DNA of 48,699 nucleotides from Thermoplasmata archaeon (GCA_020356005.1 CP070629.1:1981490-2030188), one strand, 5' to 3'. Counted from the stretch's first letter, positions 9,926 through 46,930 are shown. Translations and numbers: made by a program. The notes: generated from the sequence alone by a model not told the origin.

Positions 9926-9936
9926 AATCAAACCCC

Positions 9937-23129: not shown

Positions 23130-26100
23130 ATGAAGCAGCCTAAGTTTCATATAGGCGCACTGCGTAAAAGATTTTTCAATCGCGATACTCGTGCAGTAAC
23201 CGAGGCGCTGGGTACTGTATTTCTATTGGCGATATCTATCACTCTGGTTGGATTGGTATTTGTCTGGGTAAATTCGCTCGCCGATTTTGATGAAGGGCGG
23301 GCTCTGGCGGACCTGTCGATTTCTTACCAGGATGATGTCGTTTCAATCGAGCATAAAGGTGGGGAAGTACTGCAGGATGCCGAAACTGAGATTTTAATCC
23401 AGGTCGATACATATTTAACGCGTTACAGCATATCGGAATCAGAAGGAGACATGGCGGGAGATCTGGATTGGGGCCTTGGTGAAACCTGGAATAAAACTGT
23501 ATTATCAACACCAGACTCAGAGATCTATGTCGCTGTATATGATCTGAATACTAACACCAGGCTCATCGGCGAGACCGTCCAGGCCGGGGCAGGTAGAGCC
23601 CGGCTTGCTGACCTTTCGGTTCTGGCCGAAAATATCACATTTGAATTTTCAGGTGCTAATATCAGGAAAGATGATCTTGTCAATATAACCGTCAGGGTCA
23701 CCAATGAGGGCAGTGCGAATGCATATTACGTGCTCGTAAGATTTTATGACGGTGCCAATATAATCAGGAAGAACAACAGGGAATACCAGCTGGTTAATGT
23801 AACCGCCGGCGGCTATAATACAACCTGGATACACTGGTATCCCGATTCGTACGGACTTCATACCATTCATGTAAAGGTTTTCTATGAGTTCGGCGAGATT
23901 AATTATGCAAATAACTATGCCGAAAAGAACGCCAATGTGGAGGTTATTTTGCCGGAGGTGCACGGCTCCGACATGAAAATCACAACTTATGATATTCTTT
24001 TTGATAACAGCAACCCGACGCACGGTGCACTGATAAAGGTTACCATTCTGGTACATAACGAAGGAGACCGGGCGGTCACCGCGAAGGACGGTGCAACCCT
24101 GATCGTGCGCGATACACCGATTACGTGGAATCCCATCGATCCCCTTGCCGATAAGCCGGTCTATACCGACGGGGTGCATTTGAATAAAACCTTTTACAAT
24201 GTAACAATCCCGGTTTCAGGCTATACGCCGTATTCATTCTGGTGGAGCGCTATGCCAGGCGGAACCGTTCTGATATACGCCTTTGTGGATGCCAACAACA
24301 CCGTCATGGAAACCGAGGATACCAACGGGCTGTACGAGAGCAACAATCTCGCAATTCGTGCAATACAGATCCTGCCGAAGATTGTTCTCGTGGACGACGA
24401 CGGTGCTTCGGCAGGCAGCTTCGACGTCACATCCACCATGCGAGATTCTCTGACAGCATCCGGTGTGGTGTACGATAATCATTATGTAATAGGCTCGGAC
24501 GATCCTGCCTACGATACCGGCAGCCATCCGCTGAAGGATTACGATATTATTATCTGGATGACCGGCTACAATACAAACACGCTTACCCCAGCCAATATTG
24601 AAGCTATAAAAAGTGCAATGAAGAACGGCACGTACTTGTGGATGATATCGCAGGACGTTTTAAATGATACCGTAGCAACGCAGGGCGATCCCGTGGCCGG
24701 TGAGTTCGCATATGACTTCCTAGGTGTGGATGAATATACAATGACCGGCACACCTGTAGAATTATACGGTGTGCCCGGTGATGTGATTACAAACGGAACC
24801 TTGCTTAATACCACCGGTATTTTGCGTGGACAGGACAGAGGTGTCAATATTTCGGCCTTCAAATCCGATACATTAAAGGAGGATGTGAACGGAATTTTAT
24901 ACAATACAGTTGCACTGGGTCAGGACGGTAATATGTCTGTACGTTATTACAATGCCACCCACGACTTTAAGGTTGTATATTTCGGCTGGGAATTCGCATC
25001 GCTGGTTGATCCCACCGACCGTGCCGACCTGACTTTCAAGGTCCTACAGTGGTTCAACTGGACCATCTTACTCGGTACTGATTTCGCTATCGCCTCAGAG
25101 AAATTTTCGACCTTAACACCGCGCTATCTGGACAGGCTGGAGATCAACGCAACTGTCCGTAACAACGGTGCGGACACCGCTACCGTTGATGTGGCGTTTT
25201 TCCTGACAGGCCCTGACGGGGAGGAGGAACTCATTCCCAAATTCCCCGACAACCAGGCGAATCCTTATTCCATTACAATACCCGGTAACGGCGGCGAAGT
25301 CACCGTTGGCAAACAGTGGCTGGCCGTTTCTGTGGGGCTGCATAATTTCCGTGTGATGGTGGACCCGTACGATCTGGTTGACGAAGTTTCCGAGGCCAAC
25401 AACGATATTTCATACAGCAATCTTGCAGTTACCCAGCTGTTAATTCAATATACCATACTGGTGGTGGACGACGACAACAGCACCAATAACGGCGGGTTCC
25501 ATCCGAATGCCACAGCAGCTGTAACTACGGCGCTTGACAACATCGATTACCCCTTCGACTTCAGATCAGTAACCGGCGGTTTATCACCCGGGAACGGACC
25601 CACGGTGGATGTAATGAAGCATTACAACACCGTGATCTGGATAACCGGTAATGATACCGGTCCGACGCTCAACGGCAGCGACCAGCAAAATATCGTTGAA
25701 TACATTCGCGGTCTTTATTTTGAAGCGCAGTATTTGACAGACATTAAGGTGAACCTCTGGTTGATCGGCCAGCACATCCTGGAGGATCTTACGGTTACCA
25801 ACGCTACATTCATATCAGAAATCCTGCGGGTTTCGTCATTTACCTCCGATACAGGCATGCCCTCCACGCTGTACGGTGTTTACGATGATATAATCACCCA
25901 CGGGATACAATATGACACAAACACGCTCTATTCAGACTACGGCGATACGATTACACCAGGCGAAAATGCAACAGGAATTTTATACCAATCCCGTCTCGCA
26001 GGGACGTATAATTCTTTGAGATTTAACGATACCGAGCACCGGCTGATTTTCATGCCGTGGATTTATGATTTTATATCTACTCCGGCAGGCTTCCCCAGCG

Positions 26101-28970
26101 ATGAAACCTACCAGAGCGAGCTCGCATTTCTTATAATGCAGTGGTTTGCCTACCCCGAGCTGCGCATCGAATTGAAGACCTCGGTAATCGATATCACGGT
26201 CTCTAACGATAATCCCATGATCGGCGATTCGTATATCATTCGAACCGCTCTTTACAATTACGGCGGTAACGATACCTCCACCGTCGTGCGATTTCTGGAC
26301 GGCAGCACCATAATCGACACGCAGGCGGTATATGTACCCGCCGGCGGGAGCTCGGCAACAGAGGTTATCTGGACACCTCTGTTTGCGGGCAAGCGCAACC
26401 TGAAGGTAGCAGTGGACCCGCAAAACGACGTTGATGAAATCTTCGAGAGGTTAAACAACAACGCCACGCGCGTGGGGTTCAACGTATTCTATTTCTTCGA
26501 CGACCTGGAGAACGGTACAGGTAACTGGCAGCACGACGGAACCATTATCCACATAACCGGCGAGAGCCCTCTGGATTATATGGATAAACCCGTCTACTCC
26601 AACATAATGTACGACTGGAACCGCAGCGAGTCCGGGGGTTTCATTCCCACAAGTTATAGCTATCACAGCTTCAATTACTCTTATTATACCTACGAACCCG
26701 AGGGTACCGTCAGTATCGTATTCACTCTGGACAATTCCGAAACCATGACCGCCCAGAATCTCTACGACCTCAAGGTCGCATTCAATTCAACAATAAACAA
26801 CATGTCAGACGATGACCGCGTGGCGATGCTGACATATAACACAACAACGAACCATACGCTTTTCGACGGTAACGGCAGTTATACTTTACTCACCGATCTT
26901 GCTACTAACGAGGACGACGACGGGTTCCTAGAATTAGGCGGCAACTACACGTGTCCGATCCACGGTACGGATGAGTCCGGCCGTGCTGTAGCCAAGCATC
27001 TTGTCAGCATCCTGGATAATTCCGGAGGGGTGGGAAGACCGCTGTGGGAGACGGTTAACGCCGCAATCGATCTCGCTTACAGTTACGGTAGAGGCGTTCC
27101 CGCAGTGTTTGCAATGACCAGCGGTAACGATTCGGGGCCGCCCAACGGCTCGCCACCCGATGAAGGCCCGGCGGGCCCATGGGATCCACTGGATCCCAAA
27201 ACCTTCAACGGTAATGACGGCAATATCACCGATGATTGGACAATAGGTAAGGTATACGATGTCTGTAATGCACCGGTAAAGGTTTACACCGTGGGATTAA
27301 ATTTACCCGGCGGTAAGACCGGTATATCCATCGGCAATCCGTTGAACGAGACCTCGGAAAGCTCAAATGCAACGTTCTATCATACAACCGATTCTGCCAC
27401 ATTATCAGACATTTATAACGAAATGTTCATAGATATATTCAGGGTAACGCAGGCGCGGAGCGCACGCGCCCCTACTACGTTCTTCGAAGATGACTTCGAA
27501 ACAGACCTGACTAAGTGGCCGACAAGATCAACAAAATGGTCACAAAGTGCTGACCGAGGTTATGGCACATCAACATATAGTGCGAAATTAGATGCTAAAT
27601 CAGGGGCCGATAGTACCCTTGAATCAATTAGTATCGATCTATCCTCTGCTACTTCTGCTACATTAACATTTTATCATTGGTTGATTGGAACAGAAGATGC
27701 AGATATTGTCTTAGAATTTTATAATGGCGTTGATTGGGATCCAATTGATGATTTTGGGACAGAGGTAACCGTACCGAATAGTTGGGTTAAAAAAACAGTT
27801 ACTATAAATGTCGGAACCTATGGTATTCCCAGTTTCCAGATCAGATTCAATGGTAATACCAATCCCAGTGAGTATGTCTATATCGACGATGTTTTATTAT
27901 CAGGTGAAGTGTCCACAGGCCCCGGCTCGACGCCCGGCACAACCGAGCGGAGCTTGTGGGGCGCCGGCGACCGTAATCTGACCACCGAGAGCTTCGATTT
28001 GTTAGGGGTTACCACAGCCACGCTGACATGGTACCAGAAGTATGATATCAAGAGCGCCATGAACGGGCTGGTAGTACAAATCGGTATCTATAACAGTACC
28101 GATACAACCTGGAGGTACAGGTACCTGTACCCGAAACAGCCTTACACGAGCAATTACGATACCAGGAACACTCGCCGCGACGATTTCGGGACCGATATGC
28201 GCTGGTGCTATAACGGCGTTTCCGGGTACGGTTTGTATACCTGGGACTTTATTGAGGTTGATTTGTCAAATTATACAGGTCAAACCAATTTACGTGTTAG
28301 ATATCTATATATGTGGTCCGGCTGGGGCGACGGCGGTTATTACTTCATTGACGATGTTAAACTGCGTGTTATCCGAAACGACACCACCGCGGTTACTTCC
28401 GCTGCCGCAGACCAGTGGGCGATGACAACCGGGGATGCCCACAGCGGGACCCACAGCTGGTGGATCTGCGATCCCTCCACGGGTCATTTATCCGGCGGGC
28501 TCGATAACAGCTTATACACCCGCCCGATAGACCTGACGGGTGCACGCAATGCTACCTTATCTGCATATTTCAAATTCAATATTAACGCCAGTGCCGGCAG
28601 GCCCCCTGACGGGTTCAGGGTGGAAATCAGTTCAGATAACGGTGTGAGCTGGAAAGCCCTCAACCTGGGTGTGCGTACCGCCTGGGGCGTTTCCGGCAAC
28701 GAATCGGATGCAGAGGACGGTACGCCTGGCGACGGTAAGAGCTACACGGGGCTGGATTCGGGTAACCGGTGGGTACACACTTCTACACTTGCCAGATTGA
28801 ATACCGACATATCCGGCTGGGCCGGAAATGTTGTAATGCTGAGGTTCAGGGTGGTCACTGCATCGGATGATAACCCTGATTTCAGTAATCACTATGAATG
28901 GGCCGGGGCGGGATTCGGCGGCATTTACGTTGATGACATTATTATATCCGGCTTTTCGTTACTTGGATAA
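23130..28970 (+). CDS. giant modular type IV pilin-like (class III signal peptide) surface protein GP1: CARDB x4, two alpha/beta DDD modules, degenerate vWA, three jelly-roll-like modules
   Basis: 1946 aa with AGGTGA SD. N-terminus NRDTRAVTEALGTVFLLAISITLVGLVFVWV resembles the archaeal Pilin_N/DUF1628 motif. CARDB-like units (e.g. ADLSVLAENITF..VTNEGS..NNYA). Two alpha/beta modules (PKIVLVDDDGAS.., YTILVVDDDNST..). vWA-like VSIVFTLDNSET. The C-terminal modules each end in an hydrophobic-IDDV/VDDI motif: YVYIDDVLL, YYFIDDVKL and IYVDDIII. Confidence 0.85.
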   Translation: MKQPKFHIGALRKRFFNRDTRAVTEALGTVFLLAISITLVGLVFVWVNSLADFDEGRALADLSISYQDDVVSIEHKGGEVLQDAETEILIQVDTYLTRYSISESEGDMAGDLDWGLGETWNKTVLSTPDSEIYVAVYDLNTNTRLIGETVQAGAGRARLADLSVLAENITFEFSGANIRKDDLVNITVRVTNEGSANAYYVLVRFYDGANIIRKNNREYQLVNVTAGGYNTTWIHWYPDSYGLHTIHVKVFYEFGEINYANNYAEKNANVEVILPEVHGSDMKITTYDILFDNSNPTHGALIKVTILVHNEGDRAVTAKDGATLIVRDTPITWNPIDPLADKPVYTDGVHLNKTFYNVTIPVSGYTPYSFWWSAMPGGTVLIYAFVDANNTVMETEDTNGLYESNNLAIRAIQILPKIVLVDDDGASAGSFDVTSTMRDSLTASGVVYDNHYVIGSDDPAYDTGSHPLKDYDIIIWMTGYNTNTLTPANIEAIKSAMKNGTYLWMISQDVLNDTVATQGDPVAGEFAYDFLGVDEYTMTGTPVELYGVPGDVITNGTLLNTTGILRGQDRGVNISAFKSDTLKEDVNGILYNTVALGQDGNMSVRYYNATHDFKVVYFGWEFASLVDPTDRADLTFKVLQWFNWTILLGTDFAIASEKFSTLTPRYLDRLEINATVRNNGADTATVDVAFFLTGPDGEEELIPKFPDNQANPYSITIPGNGGEVTVGKQWLAVSVGLHNFRVMVDPYDLVDEVSEANNDISYSNLAVTQLLIQYTILVVDDDNSTNNGGFHPNATAAVTTALDNIDYPFDFRSVTGGLSPGNGPTVDVMKHYNTVIWITGNDTGPTLNGSDQQNIVEYIRGLYFEAQYLTDIKVNLWLIGQHILEDLTVTNATFISEILRVSSFTSDTGMPSTLYGVYDDIITHGIQYDTNTLYSDYGDTITPGENATGILYQSRLAGTYNSLRFNDTEHRLIFMPWIYDFISTPAGFPSDETYQSELAFLIMQWFAYPELRIELKTSVIDITVSNDNPMIGDSYIIRTALYNYGGNDTSTVVRFLDGSTIIDTQAVYVPAGGSSATEVIWTPLFAGKRNLKVAVDPQNDVDEIFERLNNNATRVGFNVFYFFDDLENGTGNWQHDGTIIHITGESPLDYMDKPVYSNIMYDWNRSESGGFIPTSYSYHSFNYSYYTYEPEGTVSIVFTLDNSETMTAQNLYDLKVAFNSTINNMSDDDRVAMLTYNTTTNHTLFDGNGSYTLLTDLATNEDDDGFLELGGNYTCPIHGTDESGRAVAKHLVSILDNSGGVGRPLWETVNAAIDLAYSYGRGVPAVFAMTSGNDSGPPNGSPPDEGPAGPWDPLDPKTFNGNDGNITDDWTIGKVYDVCNAPVKVYTVGLNLPGGKTGISIGNPLNETSESSNATFYHTTDSATLSDIYNEMFIDIFRVTQARSARAPTTFFEDDFETDLTKWPTRSTKWSQSADRGYGTSTYSAKLDAKSGADSTLESISIDLSSATSATLTFYHWLIGTEDADIVLEFYNGVDWDPIDDFGTEVTVPNSWVKKTVTINVGTYGIPSFQIRFNGNTNPSEYVYIDDVLLSGEVSTGPGSTPGTTERSLWGAGDRNLTTESFDLLGVTTATLTWYQKYDIKSAMNGLVVQIGIYNSTDTTWRYRYLYPKQPYTSNYDTRNTRRDDFGTDMRWCYNGVSGYGLYTWDFIEVDLSNYTGQTNLRVRYLYMWSGWGDGGYYFIDDVKLRVIRNDTTAVTSAAADQWAMTTGDAHSGTHSWWICDPSTGHLSGGLDNSLYTRPIDLTGARNATLSAYFKFNINASAGRPPDGFRVEISSDNGVSWKALNLGVRTAWGVSGNESDAEDGTPGDGKSYTGLDSGNRWVHTSTLARLNTDISGWAGNVVMLRFRVVTASDDNPDFSNHYEWAGAGFGGIYVDDIIISGFSLLG
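23178..23270 (+). other. class III (prepilin-like) signal peptide and hydrophobic pilin helix of GP1
   Basis: N-R-D-T-R-A|V-T-E-A-L-G followed by about 20 hydrophobic residues. The same [DN]x[RK]A[VL][ST] plus helix pattern occurs in the next three genes. Confidence 0.7.
26709..27446 (+). other. vWA-like domain of GP1 with degenerate MIDAS
   Basis: DNSET (26730-26744) stands in place of DxSxS, and MTSGND stands in place of the usual ..SDG.. strand. Confidence 0.55.
27480..27911 (+). other. extra jelly-roll-like module in GP1, absent from GP2, low GC
   Basis: FFEDDFETD....YVYIDDVLLSGEV has no counterpart at the aligned position of GP2. Six 60-nt lines hand-counted at 28-45% GC, against 55% and 70% in the flanking lines. 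Confidence 0.6.
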
Positions 28971-29020
28971 CGAGCAGACGAGGTTTGAAGCCATGTGATA
29001 ATGAAGGTGGTTGAGCAACA

Positions 29021-32000: not shown

Positions 32001-35000
32001 ACAACAGCTCGGAATACAAGGTTGTATTTATTCCGTGGGCGTATTCCGCTATCGCACCTTCCAATATCGGCATGGAGACCAATCAATCCGAATTTATGTT
32101 TTTGATAATGAACTGGTTCGCTTACCCCGAGAAGCGCATCGAGCTCCGGACTTACGGCGTGGATATCACATTGAATGACGATAACCCTGTCATCGGCGCC
32201 TCGTATGTGCTCCGAACCAATGTGTTCAACTACGGCGGGCGGGATACCAGTGCCATAGTCCGTTATTACGATAAAAATACGATTATCGATACCCAGACGA
32301 TATATGTTCCGGCAGACGGTAATTCCACCTCGGAGATCATCTGGGTACCGCTGTTTGCAGGGAACCGAACCCTGAATGTAAAAGTGGATGCGGCAAACGA
32401 TGTACCGGAGATATTCGAGTACATCAACAATAATGCGTCACGGCCAAACGAAGAAGTGTTCTTCTTCTATGACGATATGGAGATGGGTACGAGCAACTGG
32501 AACCATGAGAGCGTGTTGTATCGGATCCGCGGCGAGAGCCCACTGGACTATATGGACCAACCTGTGCATACGACAATAAACGGCACCTGGGACCAGGTAA
32601 GCGGTTTCAAGAACTACACGTTTGATTACCACTCCTCGAATACGAGCTTTTTTGCGTCCGAGCCCGGCGGTTCCACCTCCAAGCCGATTCTGGACATTGT
32701 ATTTGTCTTTGATACTTCAAATTCAATGGCTTTTGTAGATGGAGTGAAACAAGATTTTCCAGATCGGCCTATCGATCTGGCCAAAGAGGCGGCGCGTTAC
32801 CTGCTTGACTATGTCCATGACGAATCGCGGGTAATGATATACAAGACCGCCGCCAGTGAAATTGCACGGAATGTTACTCGAGACCTTGGTTGGACAACAT
32901 TGGATAAGACCGGCCGGGATCTATTAATGAACGACCCGCCGCATTATCTCTCTCATCATGGATCATCGTCGGCAGAATTGGATCCTAGTTCGTGGACCTT
33001 GATATGGTGGGCCATGGGCGATGCAGTCGAAGCGGGAATCGGCATGGGTAGAAAAGGTAAAACTGTAGTGATAACACTTTCTGACGGTGCTGATTATAAG
33101 GGTTCAGACAATAATATCGACATATCCAAAGACAGCTCATTTGACCCGATAGAAATGGGAAGTGCCAGTAACGGCCCCGCTTACGGCTGGTGTCCGTGGC
33201 GCGACTTCGGTACGCAGGATCTAATCGATTTCCACTGGGGCAAATATTTTGGCGATTCCAACACTCCGGGTTACTGGTTCAACCAAACCTTCGGACCGCC
33301 TGTAACAAAACAAGACTATGCCAGAGGGTTGCTCCGTGCGCCGATACCCATTTATACTATCGGCTTAACTTTGGAGACCGCCACGAACCGGTCGGGTGAT
33401 ATAAATGAACCCGATTTCGTTGAAGTGAGCTCAGCAGTAAACTTCAGAGATAGGCACGGGGATGTTTTAATCCATCCCAATGGCAACGAGTCCGGCACAC
33501 CAGAATTTAACCTCTACAGAGTGGCAACAACTTCCCACGGTAAGTATTACTATGCCGAAAAAGCCGAGGATCTGAAGGACATCTTCGGAAAGATCCGGGA
33601 AGATATAACCGCGTTGCTAACACGCGGAACACCGTTATCTCGAGCAACCGATATCGGCATCGAAACCAAATACGCTTTAACTGGCGAATTCAGCCTGGTG
33701 GGCATGGATTCGGCTAAGCTAACTTTCTATCATAAGTTTAAACTCAATCTGGGTTACAACGGTGCTATCGTTCGCATAGGTATGCCCAACGCCACAGGAG
33801 GCTGGGCGTACAAATATATCGAACCCTCCCAGATGTACAACAGCAATCTATACCTCCAGCGTACCGAGTACGACGACTTCGGTACGCCCATGCTCTGGTG
33901 TTGGAACGGCGTTTCCGGAGGTGGTTTATACGAATGGGAATACGCCGAATTCGACCTCTCACAGTTCATCGGCCAGCCCCGGCTGAGGATGAATTTCACG
34001 CTGGTACTGTACGGCGGCGGCGACGGCGGGGGGTGGTGGATCGACGATGTGGAGGTGCGGGTCACCCGCAGTAATATGAATCCAGTAACAGATGCCTCCA
34101 AGGACCAGTGGGAATGGACGGAGCATGCCGCGCACAGCGGCAGCTTCAGCTGGTGGAACCATAACGCTACCACGGAAAATCTTACGGGCGGATTGGACAA
34201 CAGCCTGTATACCCGCTCAATAGATCTTACGAGGGCGCGCAACGCGACGCTTACTGCTTATTTACGATTCAATATCAATGCATCCGGCGGCCGACCGCCA
34301 GACGGGTTCAGGGTGGAAGTGTCTGCCGATAACGGCCGTATCTGGAAACCGTTGAATTTAGGTTCACGGGCAGCCTGGGGCGTGTCCGGTGATAAAGCTG
34401 ATATTACCGACGGCGTACTCGACGGCAGGAGCGTAACAGGGCTTGATCCGGACGGAGACGGCTGGGTTGAGTGTGGGACACTGACCCGGCTGGACACGGA
34501 CCTGTCCGGCTGGCGCGGCTCTGTAATCAAGATCAGGTTCAGGGTGGTAACCGCAGTTGGAGGTAATCCTTACTGGTCCGGTGAGCATTACGATGACCCG
34601 GATGCAGGCTTCGGCGGGCTGTACATTGACGACGTGATAGTCTACGGCGAATCCATCGAGGCGGAATCCGAGAAGAGCACGCGGATTTCGGACCGACCCG
34701 GTTCGGGATCGCTACGCACCGGTTTACCTGTGGTTACTGTAATTGAAGTCGAAGAATCCTCCGGTGAATCTCCCCAGGATACAGAGGTGACGGTTGAAGA
34801 ATATGCGGAGTCACCTGAAGGGATTCAAAGTCATATAATAACCGGCCCGCCTGCTCTGAACGATGAAACTTACGAACCGACGGTAAACGATGAAGGTTCT
34901 GATAAGAAGGAAGTGGAGGTTGAGCCGGTAATAGTTGAGGAAGATGGTTCGAACACAGAAGATAATGAAAATGACAGCAACCTCAGCCTGGCGGCTTTAT

Positions 35001-35077
35001 CATCCTCGCTGTGTGCCCTGATATTAATAATCATACTGTTGATCGGTAAATTATTTGGCAGATACAGGCGGAGGTGA
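29021..35077 (+). CDS. giant modular type IV pilin-like surface protein GP2 (paralog of GP1): canonical vWA MIDAS, acidic linker, C-terminal TM/basic anchor
   Basis: 2018 aa with AAGGTGG SD. MNRKAVSEALGTILLMGVAIVLVSAMFVW. Colinear with GP1 at about 50-65% identity in the segments I hand-aligned. vWA motifs are LDIVFVFDTSNSM and VVITLSDGAD. The C-terminus is an E/D-rich linker followed by LCALILIIILLIGKLFGRYRRR. Confidence 0.85.
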   Translation: MKRTVPNRPNRGRDDARSKRHSSMRMYSIFRMNRKAVSEALGTILLMGVAIVLVSAMFVWTQLIPKLEEGNLAHFNADYADGNITITHMGGDELITDETEIRVRVDSQTLKYELSSDPAIDEDKRWRAGESWIKEVEIEVTPDSELEVQVIDTGNQMVLFSDELYTKTTQEELPDLSVVPDNITFNYPGNMIRRYIWTNITVRISNLGTVDVSNAVVRLFVGSTPITKDGRDQILVDVPADSTVSVWVNWTPREWGLQTIFVKLYSGYSEIDYSNNYAFEEILVDIQTILIHGPDLQLTSWDILMYPEFPTRGDDVKVTIIVHNLGDEPVQSKDGATLVIRDTEIQWNTTTDKAMYTDGVFLNQTFYNVSIPANGIVYRDFVWTARPGGNVTLYTYIDVNNSVIETPNNDGALEYNNLATRIFKIMPKILLVDDDNITSGESDSGSKLRHAMIAAGATFDMYITSGNADPYYDSGSKQLKDYDIVVWTTGYEKENTLSAANIATLKRAMVNGTYLWLVGQDIVPELTANLGDMDSAPDPGEFVYDFLGVKAYTQPENGTPELLEGIDTDPISTDLRLNLSSIWLAEDRGINISAFKNDSISDGIAGIFYNTSELGPGGNASIRYYNITTDFKTVYFGFEFSSINNPVIRAQVAFRVLKWLNWTLTFGTDFAVAEETFSKAEPKYLDRVWINATILNNGPEEMNVTVAFYVTGPDGLEKLIPQYPDMQKNPYTIIIEGGGGKYPVSKEWLATEVGLHNFRVVVDPFDAHEEISEENNDITYTDLNTELDIAFAILVVDDDNSTNNNGNDVDMVSSITEALDILEYDYDFRIVQGGGDPKAGPDVEILKHYNAVIWCTGTTGNHTLNVTDQYEIEKYLTGVYEEAAFIENLRVNFLLIGTNVLEDLNGSGTNMDPSPDAFVEKYLHVDRYTTNQTLNSELHGIVDHPVTHGLDYELQLYGSGAPADITTDAVVPTSDATGLFWRTGAHTSYAGVSYNSSEYKVVFIPWAYSAIAPSNIGMETNQSEFMFLIMNWFAYPEKRIELRTYGVDITLNDDNPVIGASYVLRTNVFNYGGRDTSAIVRYYDKNTIIDTQTIYVPADGNSTSEIIWVPLFAGNRTLNVKVDAANDVPEIFEYINNNASRPNEEVFFFYDDMEMGTSNWNHESVLYRIRGESPLDYMDQPVHTTINGTWDQVSGFKNYTFDYHSSNTSFFASEPGGSTSKPILDIVFVFDTSNSMAFVDGVKQDFPDRPIDLAKEAARYLLDYVHDESRVMIYKTAASEIARNVTRDLGWTTLDKTGRDLLMNDPPHYLSHHGSSSAELDPSSWTLIWWAMGDAVEAGIGMGRKGKTVVITLSDGADYKGSDNNIDISKDSSFDPIEMGSASNGPAYGWCPWRDFGTQDLIDFHWGKYFGDSNTPGYWFNQTFGPPVTKQDYARGLLRAPIPIYTIGLTLETATNRSGDINEPDFVEVSSAVNFRDRHGDVLIHPNGNESGTPEFNLYRVATTSHGKYYYAEKAEDLKDIFGKIREDITALLTRGTPLSRATDIGIETKYALTGEFSLVGMDSAKLTFYHKFKLNLGYNGAIVRIGMPNATGGWAYKYIEPSQMYNSNLYLQRTEYDDFGTPMLWCWNGVSGGGLYEWEYAEFDLSQFIGQPRLRMNFTLVLYGGGDGGGWWIDDVEVRVTRSNMNPVTDASKDQWEWTEHAAHSGSFSWWNHNATTENLTGGLDNSLYTRSIDLTRARNATLTAYLRFNINASGGRPPDGFRVEVSADNGRIWKPLNLGSRAAWGVSGDKADITDGVLDGRSVTGLDPDGDGWVECGTLTRLDTDLSGWRGSVIKIRFRVVTAVGGNPYWSGEHYDDPDAGFGGLYIDDVIVYGESIEAESEKSTRISDRPGSGSLRTGLPVVTVIEVEESSGESPQDTEVTVEEYAESPEGIQSHIITGPPALNDETYEPTVNDEGSDKKEVEVEPVIVEEDGSNTEDNENDSNLSLAALSSSLCALILIIILLIGKLFGRYRRR
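29117..29200 (+). other. class III signal peptide and pilin helix of GP2
   Basis: N-R-K-A|V-S-E-A-L-G-T followed by a hydrophobic helix. Preceded by a basic leader, or by an alternative start at M32. Confidence 0.7.
32690..33610 (+). other. vWA domain of GP2 with canonical MIDAS
   Basis: DTSNS at 32711-32725, a later TLSDGAD strand, and a long insertion between strands. Confidence 0.7.
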
Positions 35078-35081
35078 AAGA

Positions 35082-36347
35082 ATGACTGGAAAGTTTATGA
35101 AACTTACAATGCAAAGGCTGTTACCAAAACGCCTTCGCAAGAAACGTTTCAGCTATGACCAGCGTGCACTTTCCAGTTTGATCACCGTGGCGGGTATTCT
35201 CGCTATAATCATTATGGTAATCAGTGCGGTCCTGAATACATTGGTACCGCAGTGGGCTAAAGAAGACGAATTGGAACATATGGATAACCAGCTCCGCAAT
35301 TTTTTAACCTTGAGGACCGAAATAAACAACCTGATCGAAAATGAAGATTTCGAAAGGTCGGTCTCACCGAGAGTTTCACTCGGCGCATCAGGTAACATTC
35401 CCGTGGGCGTAATACCCAGTTCGGGAAAATTAACCTTTAATCCGTTCGATAATAGTACTGACGCAACAGCCAACAGGGTGCACGATCCGCTCAGCATCTA
35501 CAGCAAGGGCGGGGGTAATATCCAGTATGAAGCCACGAATTACTATTACCAGGATCAAACCATCGTGTACGAGCACGGGGCAGTTCTTTTGTCACAGGCA
35601 GACGGCTCGGTCATGAAGGCGGGCCCGGAATTCTCGGCCTCGAAGGTCCCGCTGCTGAACGACACTAGATCCTTCGGGTACTTCGACCCCGGCACGAAGG
35701 AAGAACCTTCTGAAATGAATTTCAACTTCCCCGGCCGCTACGGCAACCTTACTCTCAGTTATGATATATTCGATGTGGATACCGACGGTGAAATTCTTAT
35801 TAAATTGAACCGGCGCATTGTTGCCGCCGCTCTCGTCACGGGGGACGAGAACTGGACAGGCCCGCATAAAATCGAACTCCGCGGGGACTGGATACACGAC
35901 CTGACAATCAATACGTTACAATTCAATCAAACCACCGGCATTCCCGGAGAGGAATGGGGTGTGCGGAACGTTTCGCTGAGCGGAAATATTACTGCTGTGG
36001 ATCTGACCATGGTGACGCTTATCGGCAACAAGGAAGACTCCAGCGGGCGCGACAGCCATACGGTTAACGCGAAGCTGATCGCTTCAGGTTTGAACAGCTT
36101 CAGCTGGCCGGACGAAAATATCACTATAAATTTCACCACCAAGTACCCCGAGGCCTGGGAAGCTCATTTGAACTCTGCAATGAACGAGTCCACCACAAAC
36201 CTACACTGGGATTCCGATAGTGCAAAATCAGAATTTATGGTCATGAGCACCCGGATCAGTGCCGATTATTATATTGTCTCTCTTACGATCAAACATGTTA
36301 CCAATTTTGACTGTACGGTAGCGATATTAAGAACCAATCTAGGATAA
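35082..36347 (+). CDS. pilin-like class III signal peptide protein SP1
   Basis: YDQRALSSLITVAGILAIIIMVISAVL, then conserved blocks shared with SP2 (VPQWAKE..EHM, SGKLTFNP, YEHGAVLLSQ). GGAGGTGA lies 5 nt before ATG 35082; the track starts at TTG 35055, which overlaps GP2. Confidence 0.75.
   Translation: MTGKFMKLTMQRLLPKRLRKKRFSYDQRALSSLITVAGILAIIIMVISAVLNTLVPQWAKEDELEHMDNQLRNFLTLRTEINNLIENEDFERSVSPRVSLGASGNIPVGVIPSSGKLTFNPFDNSTDATANRVHDPLSIYSKGGGNIQYEATNYYYQDQTIVYEHGAVLLSQADGSVMKAGPEFSASKVPLLNDTRSFGYFDPGTKEEPSEMNFNFPGRYGNLTLSYDIFDVDTDGEILIKLNRRIVAAALVTGDENWTGPHKIELRGDWIHDLTINTLQFNQTTGIPGEEWGVRNVSLSGNITAVDLTMVTLIGNKEDSSGRDSHTVNAKLIASGLNSFSWPDENITINFTTKYPEAWEAHLNSAMNESTTNLHWDSDSAKSEFMVMSTRISADYYIVSLTIKHVTNFDCTVAILRTNLG
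35157..35234 (+). other. class III signal peptide and pilin helix of SP1
   Basis: D-Q-R-A|L-S-S followed by a hydrophobic helix. The leader is long and basic (LLPKRLRKKRFSY). Confidence 0.65.
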
Positions 36348-36386
36348 GTCTGGTATATTATATGGAAGTAGAATGTATAAATAAAG

Positions 36387-37370
36387 GTGATGGCAATGTC
36401 AACCAATCATGTTATACCCCGAAACGGTAAACATAGACGGTTTCGCAGGCACATTCGATCTACATACAGGTCGAAAGTGAATGCCCGCAGAAGATTTTTT
36501 AAAATGGATTCCAGGGCAGTTTCCAATATAGTTACATCTATAATGATGCTGGGAATTATATTCACACTCCTGGGTATGGTTTTAACCGTTTATGTCCCGA
36601 TCTGGGCCAAATCTCTGGAAGCACAGCATATGGAGGAGGTTGCTAATGCCTTCACGGATCTTAAAAGTACAGTAGATTCACAGATCGCACAGGGTGATGA
36701 AGGAACGACCATGTCCACAAGGGTCCGGCTCGGCACAGAGGGCGGCCCCTTGCTCGGGCTGGGCCAGTCCACGGGCTCACTGCAGTTCCAACCCGAAAGT
36801 TCAATGATGAGTATTTATAATTCCAACGATACCTTCGAGAAATACGGTACAGGCCGGGGAAGATTGGCGTTCGAATCCCACAACATCTATTATGTTGACC
36901 AGAGGTATATTTACGAAAACGGCGCAATCATCCTGGATCAAGAGGGCCAGACGCTGATGAAAGTGAAGCCAAATTTTTTCATCAATAATGTCTCGGGCAC
37001 CAACGAGTTCTCAACGGTTATGATCGGTTTACAGGGCGACCTCGATAACGTGGGAGGAATCAAGAGCCAGACAGTACAAACCACACTCCTTTCCGGTAAC
37101 AAGAACACGCTCTATTGGGGCGAAAGCTCCAGACCGGGCACTGGCAAAAACCTGACAATATCAATTAATACAAGCTTCCCGCTCGTATGGAATCAATATT
37201 TTGATGATTTGTTAAAAAACCAGTCAGGGTTGAACCAATCTGAATATTATATAGCCGCCCCGTCGGTGATAGGAGATCCAATAGATAACTTCTGGAGGAT
37301 CGATGTTACTATACGCGATGTAAATAAATTTACCACAACGATTTCATATGTAGAATTGATAATAACATAA
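36387..37370 (+). CDS. pilin-like class III signal peptide protein SP2 (paralog of SP1)
   Basis: MDSRAVSNIVTSIMMLGIIFTLLGMVLTVYVPIWAK. Blocks TGSLQFQP and YENGAIILDQ match SP1. AGGTGA SD. The start could be GTG 36387, ATG 36390 or ATG 36396. Confidence 0.75.
   Translation: MMAMSTNHVIPRNGKHRRFRRHIRSTYRSKVNARRRFFKMDSRAVSNIVTSIMMLGIIFTLLGMVLTVYVPIWAKSLEAQHMEEVANAFTDLKSTVDSQIAQGDEGTTMSTRVRLGTEGGPLLGLGQSTGSLQFQPESSMMSIYNSNDTFEKYGTGRGRLAFESHNIYYVDQRYIYENGAIILDQEGQTLMKVKPNFFINNVSGTNEFSTVMIGLQGDLDNVGGIKSQTVQTTLLSGNKNTLYWGESSRPGTGKNLTISINTSFPLVWNQYFDDLLKNQSGLNQSEYYIAAPSVIGDPIDNFWRIDVTIRDVNKFTTTISYVELIIT
36507..36596 (+). other. class III signal peptide and pilin helix of SP2
   Basis: D-S-R-A|V-S-N followed by a hydrophobic helix. 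Confidence 0.65.
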
Positions 37371-37374: not shown

Positions 37375-37790
37375 ATCGGAGCGTTTTGATTTTATATTGA
37401 TTTTTATCACTCACAGAGCGTTAAGCTTAGTCATTGATTATAAGCACTCACGGAGCACTTCAATGGTATAACGATTGAAAGCGTTCTCGGTAAGGATGCA
37501 TATATACAAGAAGATGAGAAATGCAGCATGCGGCAGGCAGCAAGTTTAATTAAAAATAGGGATTAGGGATTTGGACGGTTGCTACGCAACCTTTGGGGAT
37601 TAGGGTGATTTTACAAGGACTCATGACCCAGGACCCAGGACCCAGGGTCTTGCTCTTACATTCTTCCACTTTTACACAATTCTACTCTTTAACTTGTCCT
37701 GAGAGCGCTTCAAATCGAAATCCAAGCAGAGCGCTCTGAATGGCTCTTATAATTAATATATAGAAAAACGCTCCAATAGTCCATCGATAG
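37375..37790. repeat. composite spacer joining family B, a family A half-copy and family D (AGGACCC heptamers)
   Basis: agcgttttgattttatattgat sits just after the stop codon. gggattagggatttggacggttgctacgcaacctttggggattagggtgatttta is a family A left arm only. It is followed by tgacccaggacccaggacccagggtc, then family B words again. Confidence 0.7.
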
Positions 37791-38084
37791 GTTTATATAA
37801 CCGTAGTCACTAATACAAGATAATACCACCGTAAAGTATATAATACGAAAAATATTACTCTTATATTCCTAGAATTAAATAGACATTATTATATATAATT
37901 CATAGTAAGGTGTGAATATATAGAACTGGATGAATTGACTGAATACAAGGAAATAATAAATAAGTAACAAGGGGGCAAGTAAGGAGAGCAGCTGATTTTT
38001 CCCTATAATGATTAATCCCTTGCATCTTAAATGAGGTTCGAGACCATAGAGCTGTTTTACAGAAGCGGAAAGGAGAACTTGAAA

Positions 38085-44151: not shown

Positions 44152-44775
44152 ATGGAACCCTACCTCGTTATAGTTTTAACAATTTTTATCCTAATAGTGC
44201 TTCTTATAATTTATCAGATTTACCGCTGGTATCAACTCTATTTGCGTGCGCAGGAATACAAGAGCCCCGGTGGGGGTACCAAAGTCTTGAAAAAGCCTGT
44301 TCCAAGGTACCAGCTTGTGTACGGCAGCAGCTATCTACTTTTAGAAGATAAATCGGTGGAAAGCTTCAAGTTATTTTCAAGCTACATATCGCAGGGCAGC
44401 AAAGGGCTGCTTATAACGCGCATTTTCCCGGCAAAGGTTCGCAAGCAGTATAATCTCGGTAATACACCTGTACTGTGGCTCAGCCGCACGCAGGAGGGCA
44501 AGGCGATAAATCCCACGAACCTGGGCGTGCTGGTGGAGGAGGTACGGGAATACATAAAGAAGAACCGTAAAACGATAATACTGCTGGACGGATTGGAATA
44601 CCTAATAATCGAGAACGATTTCGAGCGTGTACTGAAATTTATCAACAGCCTTGAGGATGAGATCGCTCTCCATAATTCAAGACTGCTGGTGTCTGTTAAC
44701 CCGAAAGTTCTAGACCCTGAGAAAAAGGCACTACTTGAAAAGACTTCAAAGGTGCTAGTGGGAGATGAGAAATAG
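44152..44775 (+). CDS. DUF835-family membrane-anchored protein
   Basis: N-terminal TM (LVIVLTIFILIVLLIIYQI), then GLLITRIFP..VLWLS....INPTNL......IILLDGLEYLIIENDFERVLKFINSLED. These match the DUF835 pattern as I recall it. Confidence 0.7.
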   Translation: MEPYLVIVLTIFILIVLLIIYQIYRWYQLYLRAQEYKSPGGGTKVLKKPVPRYQLVYGSSYLLLEDKSVESFKLFSSYISQGSKGLLITRIFPAKVRKQYNLGNTPVLWLSRTQEGKAINPTNLGVLVEEVREYIKKNRKTIILLDGLEYLIIENDFERVLKFINSLEDEIALHNSRLLVSVNPKVLDPEKKALLEKTSKVLVGDEK

Positions 44776-44814
44776 CTATAAGATTATTTTAATTATTGAA
44801 AGCTGTAAAAGCTT

Positions 44815-45160: not shown

Positions 45161-45186
45161 TATAAGCAATCTGAAATCATTTATTC

Positions 45187-45203
45187 TTTGTTATATATAA
45201 TTT
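45187..45203 (+). promoter_or_regulatory. TATA-box candidate for a leaderless KaiC-like ATPase transcript
   Basis: tttgttatatataattt is centred about 32 nt upstream of ATG 45227. Confidence 0.4.
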
Positions 45204-45226
45204 AATAACAACTTTTATCAATATGA

Positions 45227-46330: not shown

Positions 46331-46390
46331 TAAATTAAATTGTTACACTTGTTGCAGCTGTACACAATTACGATTGTAGTATTGAGCACT

Positions 46391-46828: not shown

Positions 46829-46930
46829 TTATATCCCGGCACACTAAATATAATTCTTCATGCATAAATCTATCGGTGGATATAGGACGTAATACTAATA
46901 TGTGATAACGATATTCAGGGATTGATTACG

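What the first reader, a model, noticed from the sequence alone, without database searches (positions are those of the whole stretch)
23130..37370. Four consecutive genes with class III (type IV prepilin-like) signal peptides, two of them about 2000-aa modular 'giant pilins' with vWA domains
- **Seen in sequence:** all four proteins share [D/N]-x-[R/K]-A-[V/L]-[S/T] followed by a hydrophobic helix of about 20-25 aa. The segments are RDTRAVTEALGTVFLL.., MNRKAVSEALGTILLM.., YDQRALSSLITVAGIL.. and MDSRAVSNIVTSIMML... This is the pattern of archaeal Pilin_N/DUF1628 proteins.
- **Size contrast:** typical archaeal pilins are about 100-200 aa. GP1 and GP2 add about 1900 aa of CARDB, alpha/beta, vWA and jelly-roll modules.
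- **Established parallel:** bacterial type IV pili use vWA-containing tip adhesins (PilY1) and modular pilins with grafted vWA or lectin modules (Streptococcus sanguinis). Archaea also use class III signals for non-pilus surface assemblies, such as the Sulfolobus sugar-binding proteins.
- **Inference:** SP1 and SP2 could be minor-pilin-like adaptors that present the giant adhesins.
- **Missing parts:** no PilB/ArlI-type ATPase, PilC/ArlJ platform or PibD/EppA/FlaK peptidase lies in the window.
Basis: partly seen in the sequence, partly recalled or inferred. Interest (0 to 1): 0.85.

Follow-up and report, generated by a model that had tools for sequence, protein, structure and literature searches.

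The report
Giant modular type IV pilins, archaeal
Four neighbouring genes in a Thermoplasmata archaeon encode pilus-subunit-like proteins; two are about 2000 residues long because a normal pilin head carries a large adhesin, so they are probably sticky tips of a type IV pilus built by a machine encoded elsewhere in the genome.

Summary
All four ORFs (23130-37370, + strand) carry a class III (prepilin-type) N-terminus.

- **GP1 and GP2:** both pass Pfam Pilin_N above the curated cut-off. Their N-terminal 165 aa models as helix plus beta-sandwich, and the best solved match is the Haloferax volcanii type IV pilin.
- **SP1 and SP2:** both are DUF7289 proteins, paralogues of each other. Their signal and helix align in register with the GP signal.
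- **Cargo:** CARDB x4, two alpha/beta domains, a vWA domain and MAM-like jelly rolls. The MIDAS metal-binding site is complete in GP2 and degenerate in GP1.
- **Missing machinery:** in related genomes the same GP-GP-SP-SP block is followed directly by a PilB3-type ATPase and two TadC-like platform genes. The window's own chromosome has a second, paralogous cluster whose protein accessions run straight into a PilB3-type ATPase.

The window therefore holds a machinery-less satellite pilin cluster of a euryarchaeal PilB3/TadC-type pilus, served in trans.

The system type is known, and so are grafted vWA pilins in bacteria. Archaeal pilins of about 2000 aa were not described in any paper I found. 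They are not rare: 83 of the best 150 relatives of the pilin module are 1000 aa or longer.

This is a new variant of a known kind, of moderate to high interest. Cleavage, filament incorporation and the peptidase remain untested.

The parts
23130..28970 (+). GP1, a 1946-aa modular pilin. Leader aa 1-22, predicted cleavage A22|V23. Then a pilin module, CARDB x4, two alpha/beta (VVDDD) domains, a vWA domain and MAM-like jelly rolls.
   Evidence: - ORF and translation.
- Pfam Pilin_N 31.9 bits, CARDB 75 bits, VWA 25.7 bits.
- AGGTGA lies 8 nt upstream of the ATG.
- Orthologues of 70-72% identity and full length.
23130..23624 (+). GP1 pilin module (aa 1-165): class III signal, alpha-1 helix and beta-sandwich head.
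   Evidence: - AF2 pLDDT 81, helix then 7 strands.
- Foldseek top hits 8fj5_A (H. volcanii pilus, E 3e-5), 8rey (Cuniculiplasma filament), 4p94 (FlaF) and 8fk7.
- Profile against PDB sequences: 8fj5_A at E 1.8e-11.
26667..27470 (+). GP1 vWA region (aa 1180-1447). The MIDAS site is degenerate: DNSET at 1201, and TSG in place of TDG at 1330.
29021..35077 (+). GP2, a 2018-aa modular pilin and paralogue of GP1. Predicted cleavage A36|V37; alternative start M32 at 29114.
   Evidence: - Translation and Pfam Pilin_N 28.2 bits, CARDB 51 bits.
- 46% identity to GP1 over aa 1-1206 and 55% over the last 330 aa, with a divergent middle cassette.
32633..33646 (+). GP2 vWA region (aa 1205-1542) with a complete MIDAS pattern: DTSNS at 1231, a conserved Thr, and SDG at 1354.
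   Evidence: - A family profile with GP2 as first row hits collagen VI vWA (E 4e-13), Mfa5, RrgA and S. sanguinis PilB 7b7p.
- Not detected by Pfam on GP2 alone.
34649..35059 (+). GP2 C-terminal acidic stalk (aa 1877-1987), TM helix (aa 1988-2013) and basic tail RYRRR.
   Evidence: - Sequence; coordinates.
- Conserved in P0006, L043 and L045, which belong to the ATPase-less subtype.
- Absent in L001, L003 and L008.
35055..36347 (+). SP1, a DUF7289 pilin-like protein (430 aa from TTG; probable ATG at 35082). Predicted cleavage A38|L39.
   Evidence: - Translation and DUF7289 at 50.2 bits.
- 33% identity to SP2 over 176 aa.
- The motif [KS]A|LSSLITV is conserved in L043-L045.
36387..37370 (+). 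SP2, a DUF7289 pilin-like protein (327 aa from GTG; 324 aa from 36396; M40 at 36504). Predicted cleavage A44|V45. The mature N-terminus VSNIVTSIMMLGI is nearly invariant.
   Evidence: - Translation, DUF7289 at 41.2 bits, homologue search and alignment.
- hhalign against the GP pilin module aligns the signal and helix in register (probability 84%).
- AF2 gives a long helix (aa 39-99) and a beta domain, but at low confidence.
37385..37410 (+). Oligo-T runs directly after the SP2 stop codon, a plausible end of the four-gene transcription unit.
   Evidence: Read from the sequence only. Not tested.
17257..22809 (+). Flanking CARDB x8 giant with a TM segment and cytoplasmic zinc ribbons. It is not class III. 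It is a probable S-layer-like partner of the pilus system.
   Evidence: - Domains and translation.
- Homologues lie convergently downstream of the PilB/TadC operons in 11 of 21 loci.
38031..44027 (+). Second CARDB x8 / zinc-ribbon giant. It occupies the place where relatives carry pilB3-tadC-tadC.
   Evidence: - Domains and translation.
- The same order is found in L044 and L045.
44152..45946 (+). A DUF835 protein and a KaiC/ArlH-like ATPase, candidate regulators. The same gene order occurs in L044.
   Evidence: -.
- KaiC-family association with archaeal T4P loci is reported in PMC4858521.

Best explanation
The four genes form a machinery-less ('satellite') pilin cluster of a euryarchaeal PilB3/TadC-type type IV pilus system in a Thermoplasmata archaeon.

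**Components**
- GP1 and GP2 are modular pilins. Each has a complete PilA-like pilin module: a class III signal, a hydrophobic alpha-1 helix and a beta-sandwich head, about 165 aa in all. This module is fused to about 1800 aa of adhesin-type cargo.
- The cargo comprises CARDB Ig-like domains, two alpha/beta domains, a variable vWA cassette and MAM-like jelly rolls.
- SP1 and SP2 are DUF7289 minor-pilin-like proteins. They fit the published description of arCOG02911: duplicated, 250-550 aa, FlaFind-positive and all-beta.

**Proposed mechanism (inferred)**
1. A prepilin peptidase removes the basic leaders after [G/A].
2. A PilB3-type ATPase and a split TadC platform, encoded elsewhere on the chromosome, extract the alpha-1 helices from the membrane. 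One such ATPase lies next to a paralogous GP-SP-SP cluster.
3. The four subunits assemble through their helices into a priming or tip complex. This complex displays the two giant vWA adhesins on a pilus or a short stalk.
4. GP2 probably binds its ligand through a metal-dependent MIDAS site. GP1 has lost that site.

**Shown here:** the motifs, the homology, the pilin fold of GP1, the conserved synteny with the machinery in relatives, and the presence of the machinery in the same genome.

**Inferred:** cleavage, assembly in trans, tip location and adhesion.
For: **Pilin identity of GP1 and GP2**
- Pilin_N scores above the curated cut-off in both, and in 21 of 23 family members.
- The GP pilin-module profile matches solved filament-forming archaeal pilins: 8fj5_A at E 1.8e-11, plus 8gi2 and 9myg.
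- The AF2 model (pLDDT 81) has archaeal pilus subunits as its top Foldseek hits.

**SP1 and SP2**
- Both are DUF7289.
- The SP2 family keeps an invariant mature N-terminus after [G/A], with leaders of 11-80 aa.
- Its signal and helix align in register with those of the GPs.

**Synteny with the machinery**
- L006, L007 and L009 read GP-GP-SP-(tiny ORF)-SP-PilB3(T2SSE)-T2SSF-T2SSF.
- The DUF7289 gene is immediately followed by a PilB-type ATPase in 21 of 33 non-redundant loci.
- In Methanosarcina loci, small PilA genes, a 334-aa Pilin_N protein and two DUF7289 genes sit in the equivalent positions.

**Same genome**
- UCH88963 (giant paralogue), UCH88965 (SP2 paralogue) and UCH88966 (PilB3-type ATPase, 68% identical to the L006 ATPase) are on the same 3,578,571-bp contig, with consecutive accessions.
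- L005 shows an SP1-like gene directly upstream of the UCH88965 gene.

**The ATPase-less arrangement is conserved, not an assembly accident**
L044 and L045 share it at 65-70% identity.

**Cargo**
The vWA profile hits the pilus tip adhesins RrgA and Mfa5 and the modular pilin PilB 7b7p.

**Literature**
- Archaeal pilins served in trans, arCOG02911 minor pilins, S-layer-like partners and KaiC association: PMC4858521.
- A split platform and pilin genes 500 kb from the machinery in Cuniculiplasma: PMC12448462.
- Paralogous tip clusters in trans in Myxococcus: PMC12075869.
Against: - No ATPase, platform or peptidase lies in the window, and the prepilin peptidase of this genome could not be looked for.
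- No small major pilin is encoded in any GP-type locus, so the filament that would carry the tip is unidentified.
- GP2 has a conserved C-terminal TM anchor. This is hard to reconcile with display at the tip of a long pilus.
- The SP2 model is of low confidence (pLDDT 59.6) and has no structural match.
- The leaders are long (22-44 aa from the first start codon) compared with typical class III leaders, although shorter internal starts exist for GP2 and SP2.
- The giant next to the ATPase in this genome (P0014) lacks the pilin module as annotated.
Confidence: 0.72

Rival explanations
1. Pilin-anchored surface display without a true pilus. The PilB3/TadC machine, or the membrane alone, erects GP1 and GP2 on a very short pseudopilus-like stalk made of DUF7289 proteins. 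This would resemble the Sulfolobus bindosome or a T2SS pseudopilus. The result would be an integrin-like adhesive coat on a cell that may lack an S-layer. GP2 would stay tethered by its C-terminal TM helix.
For: - No small PilA-type major pilin is present in any GP-type locus; these loci hold only GP, GP, SP and SP.
- The C-terminal TM anchor of GP2 is conserved in the ATPase-less subtype.
- Sister families fuse the same pilin module to FG-GAP propellers.
- A precedent for functionalised TFF machineries displaying class III binding proteins is in bioRxiv 10.64898/2026.04.22.720090.
Against: - The GPs keep a complete pilin head domain homologous to that of filament-forming PilA, not just a signal peptide.
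- Stand-alone major pilin genes are commonly encoded far from the machinery in archaea (PMC4858521, PMC12448462), so their absence from the locus says little.
Confidence: 0.2
2. The N-termini are ordinary uncleaved signal anchors or Sec signals of large envelope proteins, and the resemblance to class III signals is superficial. On this reading the proteins are S-layer-like or adhesin proteins unrelated to any pilus machine.
For: - The window has no pilus machinery.
- It is flanked by two non-pilin CARDB giants with Sec-type N-termini.
- The leaders are long if translation starts at the first start codon.
Against: - Pilin_N and DUF7289 hits lie above the curated cut-offs.
- Homology and fold similarity extend through the globular pilin head.
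- The motif register is conserved across relatives at 25-70% identity.
- Synteny with PilB3/TadC operons is tight in 21 of 33 loci.
Confidence: 0.05
3. The window cluster is a decaying duplicate. It would have lost its ATPase and platform genes to the insertion of the CARDB giant and would no longer be assembled.
For: - The place taken by pilB3-tadC-tadC in L006 and L007 is occupied here by a CARDB giant.
- GP1 has a degenerate MIDAS site.
Against: - All four ORFs are intact over 14 kb.
- The same ATPase-less order is conserved, with full-length genes, in at least three other metagenomic contigs at 65-72% identity.
- No pilB or tadC remnants are present.
Confidence: 0.03

Closest known systems
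Euryarchaeal 'clade 2' / 'system 2' PilA-based type IV pili (Haloferax volcanii PilA1-6 with PilB3-PilC3; Makarova, Koonin and Albers 2016, PMC4858521)
   Same: - The GP N-terminus is a Pilin_N (PilA-family) module, and its best solved match is the H. volcanii pilin 8fj5.
- The ATPases in related loci carry the PilB3_N/PilB3_C domains.
- A duplicated 250-550-aa FlaFind-type minor pilin (the arCOG02911 description) corresponds to SP1 and SP2.
- An S-layer-like large protein and KaiC-family ATPases are associated with the loci.
- Pilins can be encoded away from the machinery.
   Different: - The PilA-family proteins here are about 2000 aa rather than 130-170 aa.
- The platform is split into two genes and the ATPase is often duplicated.
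- No small major pilin is encoded in the loci.
Bacterial modular pilins, e.g. Streptococcus sanguinis PilB (pilin module plus grafted vWA; PMC8179133; PDB 7b7p)
   Same: - An N-terminal pilin module carries a vWA module with a MIDAS site.
- The protein is encoded with other minor pilins.
- The location is proposed to be the pilus tip.
- The vWA profile of the GP family hits 7b7p.
   Different: - The class III motif is of the archaeal type (RA|VSE...), not the bacterial G|FTLxE N-methylation motif.
- About 1800 aa of multi-domain cargo is carried, compared with one module. The largest bacterial modular pilin reported in that survey was 860 aa.
- The resemblance is analogy through convergent grafting, not orthology.
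Myxococcus xanthus Kil (Tad) pilus 'Tip' clusters (PMC12075869)
   Same: - Paralogous clusters of minor pilins with large variable domains are present.
- Some lie next to the machinery and others elsewhere in the genome.
- They are proposed to form interchangeable tips on one machine.
   Different: - That system is bacterial Tad, with three pilins per tip and much smaller proteins.
- In that system function is shown genetically. Here it is only inferred.
PilY1/PilC tip adhesins and DUF2341 adhesins of Methanococcus Epd pili
   Same: [quoted passage not shown]
   Different: - PilY1 is not a pilin and has no class III signal or alpha-1 helix.
- GP1 and GP2 carry their own pilin module.
- No PilY1 or DUF2341 domain was detected.
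Sulfolobus bindosome (class III sugar-binding proteins with BasEF)
   Same: Non-pilin-sized proteins with class III signals depend on a PilB/TadC-type machine for surface assembly.
   Different: - The cargo here is of adhesin type, not a solute-binding protein.
- There is no ABC transporter nearby.
- The GPs keep a full pilin head domain.

Membership tests
Archaeal type IV pilin (Pilin_N, PF07790 / class III signal-peptide proteins) | N-terminal Pilin_N HMM match above the gathering score | tested here: met
   - GP1 31.9 bits and GP2 28.2 bits against a cut-off of 25.2; 21 of 23 family members match.
- SP1 and SP2 do not match Pilin_N. They match DUF7289 instead.
Archaeal type IV pilin (Pilin_N, PF07790 / class III signal-peptide proteins) | A basic leader, then [KRDE][GA] followed by an uncharged hydrophobic helix of about 20 aa near the N-terminus | tested here: met
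   - All four proteins have it.
- The register is conserved in orthologues.
- This was my own regular expression written from memory of FlaFind. The FlaFind program itself was not run.
Archaeal type IV pilin (Pilin_N, PF07790 / class III signal-peptide proteins) | Pilin fold: an N-terminal alpha-helix followed by a beta-sandwich head | tested here: met
   - GP1 aa 11-175: pLDDT 81, with Foldseek hits 8fj5_A (E 3e-5), 8rey, 4p94 and 8fk7.
- SP2 is inconclusive: pLDDT 59.6 and no structural match.
Archaeal type IV pilin (Pilin_N, PF07790 / class III signal-peptide proteins) | Cleavage by a PibD/EppA/FlaK-type prepilin peptidase, and polymerisation into a filament | not testable with these tools
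   This needs N-terminal proteomics and microscopy. The genome outside the window was not retrievable.
Euryarchaeal PilB3/TadC-type type IV pilus system (clade 2 of PMC4858521) | A dedicated PilB-type ATPase (T2SSE with PilB3_N/C) and a TadC/T2SSF platform linked to the pilin genes | tested here: met
   - Not in the window.
- Directly downstream in L006, L007 and L009, and in 21 of 33 loci.
- In the same genome, the accession next to a paralogous cluster.
Euryarchaeal PilB3/TadC-type type IV pilus system (clade 2 of PMC4858521) | An arCOG02911-type minor pilin (duplicated, 250-550 aa, FlaFind-positive, all-beta) | tested here: inconclusive
   SP1 and SP2 fit the published description, but no arCOG library was available to assign them.
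Archaeal TFF 'system 1' versus 'system 2' (bioRxiv 10.64898/2026.04.22.720090) | Platform split into two genes (system 1) or encoded by a single gene (system 2) | tested here: inconclusive
   - The platform is split in the relatives, which is system 1-like.
- The ATPase carries PilB3 domains and the loci hold large adhesin-like proteins, which is system 2-like.
- PMC4858521 notes that many clade 2 loci have two tadC genes.
Bacterial modular type IV pilins (IPR012902 N-terminus plus grafted module) | The bacterial prepilin N-methylation motif (G|F/M-T-L-x-E) | tested here: not met
   The N-termini are of the archaeal type, RA|VTEALG and KA|VSEALG. The GPs are functional analogues, not family members.
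Bacterial modular type IV pilins (IPR012902 N-terminus plus grafted module) | A functional module (here vWA with MIDAS) fused C-terminally to a complete pilin module | tested here: met
   - vWA profile hits are.
- The MIDAS pattern D-x-S-x-S...T...D is complete in GP2 and degenerate in GP1.
PilY1/PilC-type non-pilin tip adhesin | No pilin module, and a PilY1 C-terminal beta-propeller domain | tested here: not met
   The GPs have their own pilin module, and no PilY1/Neisseria_PilC or DUF2341 hit was found.
Bindosome-type class III solute-binding proteins | An SBP domain and a neighbouring ABC transporter | tested here: not met
   There is no SBP domain in the four proteins and no ABC transporter in the window.

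The most novel reading that the evidence does not exclude
The giant pilin-fused proteins may be the main cargo of a dedicated PilB3/TadC machine, rather than accessories on a conventional pilus. On this reading the machine is a type-IV-filament-derived display system. It erects integrin-like adhesins on short DUF7289 stalks: vWA here, FG-GAP propellers in sister families. Paralogous GP-GP-SP-SP cassettes would act as interchangeable heads, and GP2 would tether the assembly to the membrane through its C-terminal anchor. That would be a previously undescribed archaeal cell-adhesion apparatus, widespread in Thermoplasmatota.
Probability: 0.2. Interest if true: 0.8.

Novelty: new variant of a known kind. 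Interest (0 to 1): 0.6.

Why it matters
- **Scale of pilin grafting.** Modular pilins were surveyed only in bacteria, through a bacterial motif, and the largest found was 860 aa (PMC8179133). These archaeal proteins show the same grafting strategy at more than twice that size, with multi-domain cargo.
- **A large unstudied class.** The pilin-module profile finds 1119 clusters (at 50% identity) at E <= 1e-10. Of the best 150, 83 are 1000 aa or longer. Some of these carry FG-GAP propellers.
- **A concrete adhesion hypothesis.** The genes give a testable model for how uncultured Thermoplasmatota attach to surfaces or partners, some of which lack S-layers.
- **A test of trans assembly.** The pair of paralogous clusters, one with machinery and one without, offers a natural test of whether one archaeal pilus machine serves interchangeable tip sets.
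- **An assembly puzzle.** It is unclear how a 200-kDa subunit passes through, or is assembled by, a TadC/PilB platform, and what the C-terminal anchor of GP2 does.

Tried and rejected
- **Retrieving the window's own contig.** Exact-protein look-ups of GP1 and of the same-genome ATPase P0098 returned 'not on record'. P0057 returned only a 2-kb Logan contig. Adjacency in the second locus therefore rests on consecutive NCBI accessions plus L005.
- **Genome-contig scan.** It did not return the window's genome, so the prepilin peptidase could not be sought.
- **SP2 structure.** The model was poor (pLDDT 59.6) and Foldseek found nothing significant. The SP2 profile against PDB sequences also found nothing significant.
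- **Single-sequence PDB searches of GP1 and GP2.** No hits. Only profiles worked.
- **NCBIfam.** Nothing for SP1 or SP2.
- **Remnants of pilB or tadC in the window.** None found.
- **tRNA genes as island markers.** None found.
- **Literature searches.** 'DUF7289' and 'Pilin_N' with 'CARDB' returned no papers.
- **Considered and rejected.**
  - PilY1-like non-pilin adhesin: the GPs have their own pilin module.
  - Bindosome SBPs: no SBP domain and no ABC transporter.
  - The 45-47-aa ORF between SP1 and SP2 in L001 and L003 as a system component: there is no room for it in the window, and it overlaps the SP2 leader ORF in L006.

Full report
**1. What is in the sequence.**

The region 23130-37370 holds four consecutive + strand ORFs.
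- GP1: 23130-28970, 1946 aa.
- GP2: 29021-35077, 2018 aa.
- SP1: 35055-36347, 430 aa from a TTG. An ATG at 35082, four bases after the GP2 stop, is the more likely start.
- SP2: 36387-37370, 327 aa from a GTG. The database version, P0027, starts at 36396.

Each consists of a basic leader, [R/K]-A, then V/L-S/T and an uncharged hydrophobic stretch. The spacing between genes is operon-like. An AGGTGA lies 8 nt before the GP1 ATG, and oligo-T runs follow the SP2 stop.

The window is archaeal: TruD, NOG1-type GTPase, DUF63, DUF835 and KaiC-like genes are present. It comes from a 3,578,571-bp contig of a Thermoplasmata MAG with locus-tag prefix JSV49_.

**2. Is the class III / pilin reading real?**

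Yes.
- Pfam Pilin_N scores 31.9 bits for GP1 and 28.2 bits for GP2, against a curated cut-off of 25.2. SP1 and SP2 match DUF7289 at 50.2 and 41.2 bits, against a cut-off of 27.
- In a window-wide scan of 153 ORFs of 60 aa or more with a FlaFind-like pattern, only these genes matched. The single other match was an artefact. A looser scan recovers SP2 as well, along with a few generic TM segments.
- In 23 GP-family proteins, the motif [K/R/G][A/G]|V-S/T-E-A/I-L/I-G-T is conserved at the N-terminus. Pilin_N is found in 21 of the 23.
- A profile of the first ~165 aa of the GP family matches the sequences of solved, filament-forming archaeal pilins. These are H. volcanii 8fj5_A (E 1.8e-11, covering helix and head), Natrinema PilA2 8gi2, and 9myg.
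- An AlphaFold2 model of GP1 aa 11-175 has mean pLDDT 81, with a helix followed by a seven-strand beta-sandwich at pLDDT above 90. Its top Foldseek hits are 8fj5_A (E 3e-5), the Cuniculiplasma divulgatum filament 8rey, S. acidocaldarius FlaF 4p94 and the Pyrobaculum pilus 8fk7.
- In 15 SP2 homologues, the mature N-terminus VSNIVTSIMMLGI after [G/A] is nearly invariant. The leaders vary from 11 to about 80 residues.
- hhalign places the SP2 signal and helix in the same register as the GP signal, with probability 84%.
- SP1 and SP2 are paralogues, 33% identical over 176 aa.
- The SP2 model shows a 60-residue helix and a beta domain, but its confidence is low and it has no structural match.

**3. 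The cargo.**

GP1 and GP2 are paralogues. They are 46% identical over aa 1-1206 and 55% identical over the last ~330 aa. The middle cassette is divergent.

Pfam finds CARDB x4 in each protein, a vWA domain in GP1, and an InhA-like MAM domain just below the cut-off in GP2. Across the family the counts are: CARDB 23/23, VWA or VWA_2 10-12/23, MAM 9/23, Reelin subrepeat-B 13/23. ThuA is found in 2 members and DUF4159 in 1, and these two Pfam families are the only candidate names for the two 'VVDDD' alpha/beta domains; the domain positions of those hits were not checked, so the assignment is tentative.

A profile of the middle cassette with GP2 as first row hits vWA domains in the PDB:
- collagen VI, E 4e-13;
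- the P. gingivalis fimbrial tip subunit Mfa5;
- the S. pneumoniae pilus adhesin RrgA;
- the S. sanguinis modular pilin PilB, 7b7p.

The MIDAS pattern is complete in GP2: DTSNS at 1231, a conserved Thr, and SDG at 1354. It is degenerate in GP1: DNSET, with TSG in place of TDG.

GP2 additionally ends in an acidic stalk, a TM helix and RYRRR. This tail is conserved in its closest orthologues and absent in the ATPase-linked subtype.

**4. Where is the machinery?**

There is none in the window. It is found in three other places.

- **Directly downstream in relatives.** In the nearest fully sampled relatives the order is GP-GP-SP1(~550 aa)-[45-aa ORF]-SP2-PilB3-type ATPase (T2SSE + PilB3_C; PilB3_N in the precomputed Pfam hits)-T2SSF(~280 aa)-T2SSF(~460 aa). 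This holds for L006, L007 and L009.
- **Across GTDB genomes.** A DUF7289 gene is immediately followed by a PilB-type ATPase in 21 of 33 non-redundant loci. The usual order is DUF7289-PilB-TadC-TadC-PilB. In 11 of the 21, a homologue of the window's CARDB/zinc-ribbon giants lies convergently downstream.
- **Equivalent positions in Methanosarcina.** Small PilA genes (162-171 aa, KA|VSPVIGVILMVAITV), a 334-aa Pilin_N protein and two DUF7289 genes sit beside PilB/TadC. The GPs therefore occupy the place of ordinary Pilin_N proteins.
- **In the same chromosome.** P0014 (UCH88963, JSV49_12130) is a 2405-aa GP paralogue. P0057 (UCH88965, JSV49_12140) is an SP2 paralogue. P0098 (UCH88966) is a PilB3-type ATPase 68% identical to that of L006. 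Their accessions are consecutive. L005 shows an SP1-like gene directly upstream of P0057. A second PilB3-type ATPase, P0176, also exists.

The window's ATPase-less order is GP-GP-SP1-SP2-CARDB giant-DUF835-KaiC-like ATPase. It recurs at 65-72% identity in L043, L044 and L045. It is therefore a conserved arrangement, not an assembly accident.

**5. Mechanism.**

- **Shown:** four class III-type proteins; two with a bona fide pilin module and adhesin cargo; two of a minor-pilin-like family; tight evolutionary linkage to a PilB3/TadC machine; and presence of that machine in the same genome.
- **Inferred:** leader removal by a prepilin peptidase; extraction and assembly by the machinery in trans; the four alpha-1 helices forming a priming or tip complex; and vWA-mediated adhesion, metal-dependent in GP2.

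The inference rests on three analogies: bacterial minor-pilin tip complexes, S. sanguinis PilB (PMC8179133) and the Myxococcus Kil tip clusters encoded in trans (PMC12075869). It also rests on archaeal precedents for pilins served in trans (PMC4858521; Cuniculiplasma, PMC12448462).

The main rival, at about 0.2, is a bindosome-like short stalk or surface coat rather than a long pilus. Two observations favour it: no small major pilin is encoded in any GP-type locus, and GP2 has a C-terminal anchor.

**6. Comparison with what is known.**

The system type matches the euryarchaeal clade 2 PilA-based pili of Makarova et al. 2016. That paper describes the duplicated 250-550-aa arCOG02911 minor pilin, the S-layer-like partner, the KaiC association, two tadC genes in many loci, and two ATPases in Aciduliprofundum.

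A 2026 preprint notes 'large adhesin-like proteins' in system 2 loci and class III binding proteins functionalising TFF machines.

Modular pilins with grafted vWA are established in bacteria. However, that survey used the bacterial N-terminal signature, and its largest protein had 860 residues.

I found no paper describing archaeal Pilin_N proteins of about 2000 aa. The literature search covered only the held library.

**7. How common?**

A full-library HMM search with the GP pilin-module profile finds 5149 cluster representatives at E <= 0.001 and 1119 at E <= 1e-10. Of the best 150, 83 are 1000 aa or longer, 36 are 1500 aa or longer and 22 are 1900 aa or longer, almost all with the module at the N-terminus.

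Five sampled proteins of 1100-1450 aa combine Pilin_N with FG-GAP repeats. A 2323-aa one combines Pilin_N with CARDB, VWA and Big_5.

The window is thus one member of a large, diverse and apparently unstudied class.

**8. Verdict.**

This is a new variant of a known kind. The interest score is 0.6: it is notable to specialists and opens testable questions, but it is continuous with known pilus biology.

Noticed in passing
window 17257-22809 and 38031-44027 (+): - Two paralogous giants (29% identity) flank the pilin cluster. Each has a Sec-type N-terminus, a long beta-rich region, CARDB x8, a TM segment and cytoplasmic double zinc ribbons. The second also has a very long K/E-rich tail.
- Homologues lie convergently downstream of DUF7289-PilB-TadC-TadC-PilB operons in 11 of 21 Thermoplasmata loci.
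- They may be the 'S-layer-like' partner of this pilus type.
   Followed up: partly
window 44152-47572 (+); L044 15169-16720; L040 6514-9132: - A DUF835 protein, a KaiC/ArlH-like single-domain ATPase and an HhH-domain protein follow the second giant.
- The DUF835 and KaiC-like genes follow the CARDB giant in the same order in L044.
- In core Thermoplasmata loci an 873-aa HhH + KaiC-like fusion sits directly upstream of the pilus operon.
- This suggests a regulatory link.
   Followed up: partly
window 37379-37459, 37703-37781 and 9934-10021: - The short intergenic repeat CACTC-N3-GAGCGYT occurs as 37-nt-spaced direct copies just after SP2, with an inverted copy 380 nt further on. A similar group lies after the DUF63 gene.
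- 14 of the 15 GAGCGYT matches in the window are intergenic.
- For the composite motif there are 10 matches against 3.8 expected, and none of 100 shuffles reached 10.
- Its function is unknown.
   Followed up: partly
window 34649-35059 (GP2 aa 1877-2013): - GP2 has both an N-terminal pilin module and a C-terminal acidic stalk, TM helix and RYRRR tail.
- The tail is conserved only in the ATPase-less subtype of the cluster.
- It is unexplained how a doubly anchored subunit would be displayed.
   Followed up: partly
same genome, outside the window: P0014 (UCH88963.1, JSV49_12130): - This giant paralogue lies next to the PilB3-type ATPase. As annotated, it starts about 150 aa into the alignment with its orthologue P0013, so it lacks the pilin module.
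- The cause could be a miscalled start, a frameshift or real loss. The DNA was not retrievable.
   Followed up: no
P0212, P0218, P0222, P0225, P0232: A sister class of proteins of 1100-1450 aa combines the same type of N-terminal Pilin_N module with FG-GAP (integrin-alpha-like propeller) repeats. Their taxonomy and genomic context are unknown.
   Followed up: partly
L001 24374-24511; L003 24279-24422 (L006 9844-9987): - A 45-47-aa ORF is called between SP1 and SP2 in the ATPase-linked relatives.
- It has no counterpart in the window.
- It overlaps the upstream extension of the SP2 ORF, so it is probably not a real gene.
   Followed up: partly
window 22001-36000 versus flanks: The G+C content of the GP1-SP1 block is 0.49-0.52. 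The flanking regions are at 0.36-0.47, and the intergenic region plus the start of the next giant is at 0.42. I did not test whether this reflects horizontal origin or amino-acid composition.
   Followed up: no
window 3392-4819 (+) and 47860-48597 (-): Other surface-type proteins lie in the window: a 475-aa protein with a C-terminal FIMAH domain, and a 245-aa ORF made of three CHB_HEX_C_1 / Fn3_assoc repeats near the window end.
   Followed up: no
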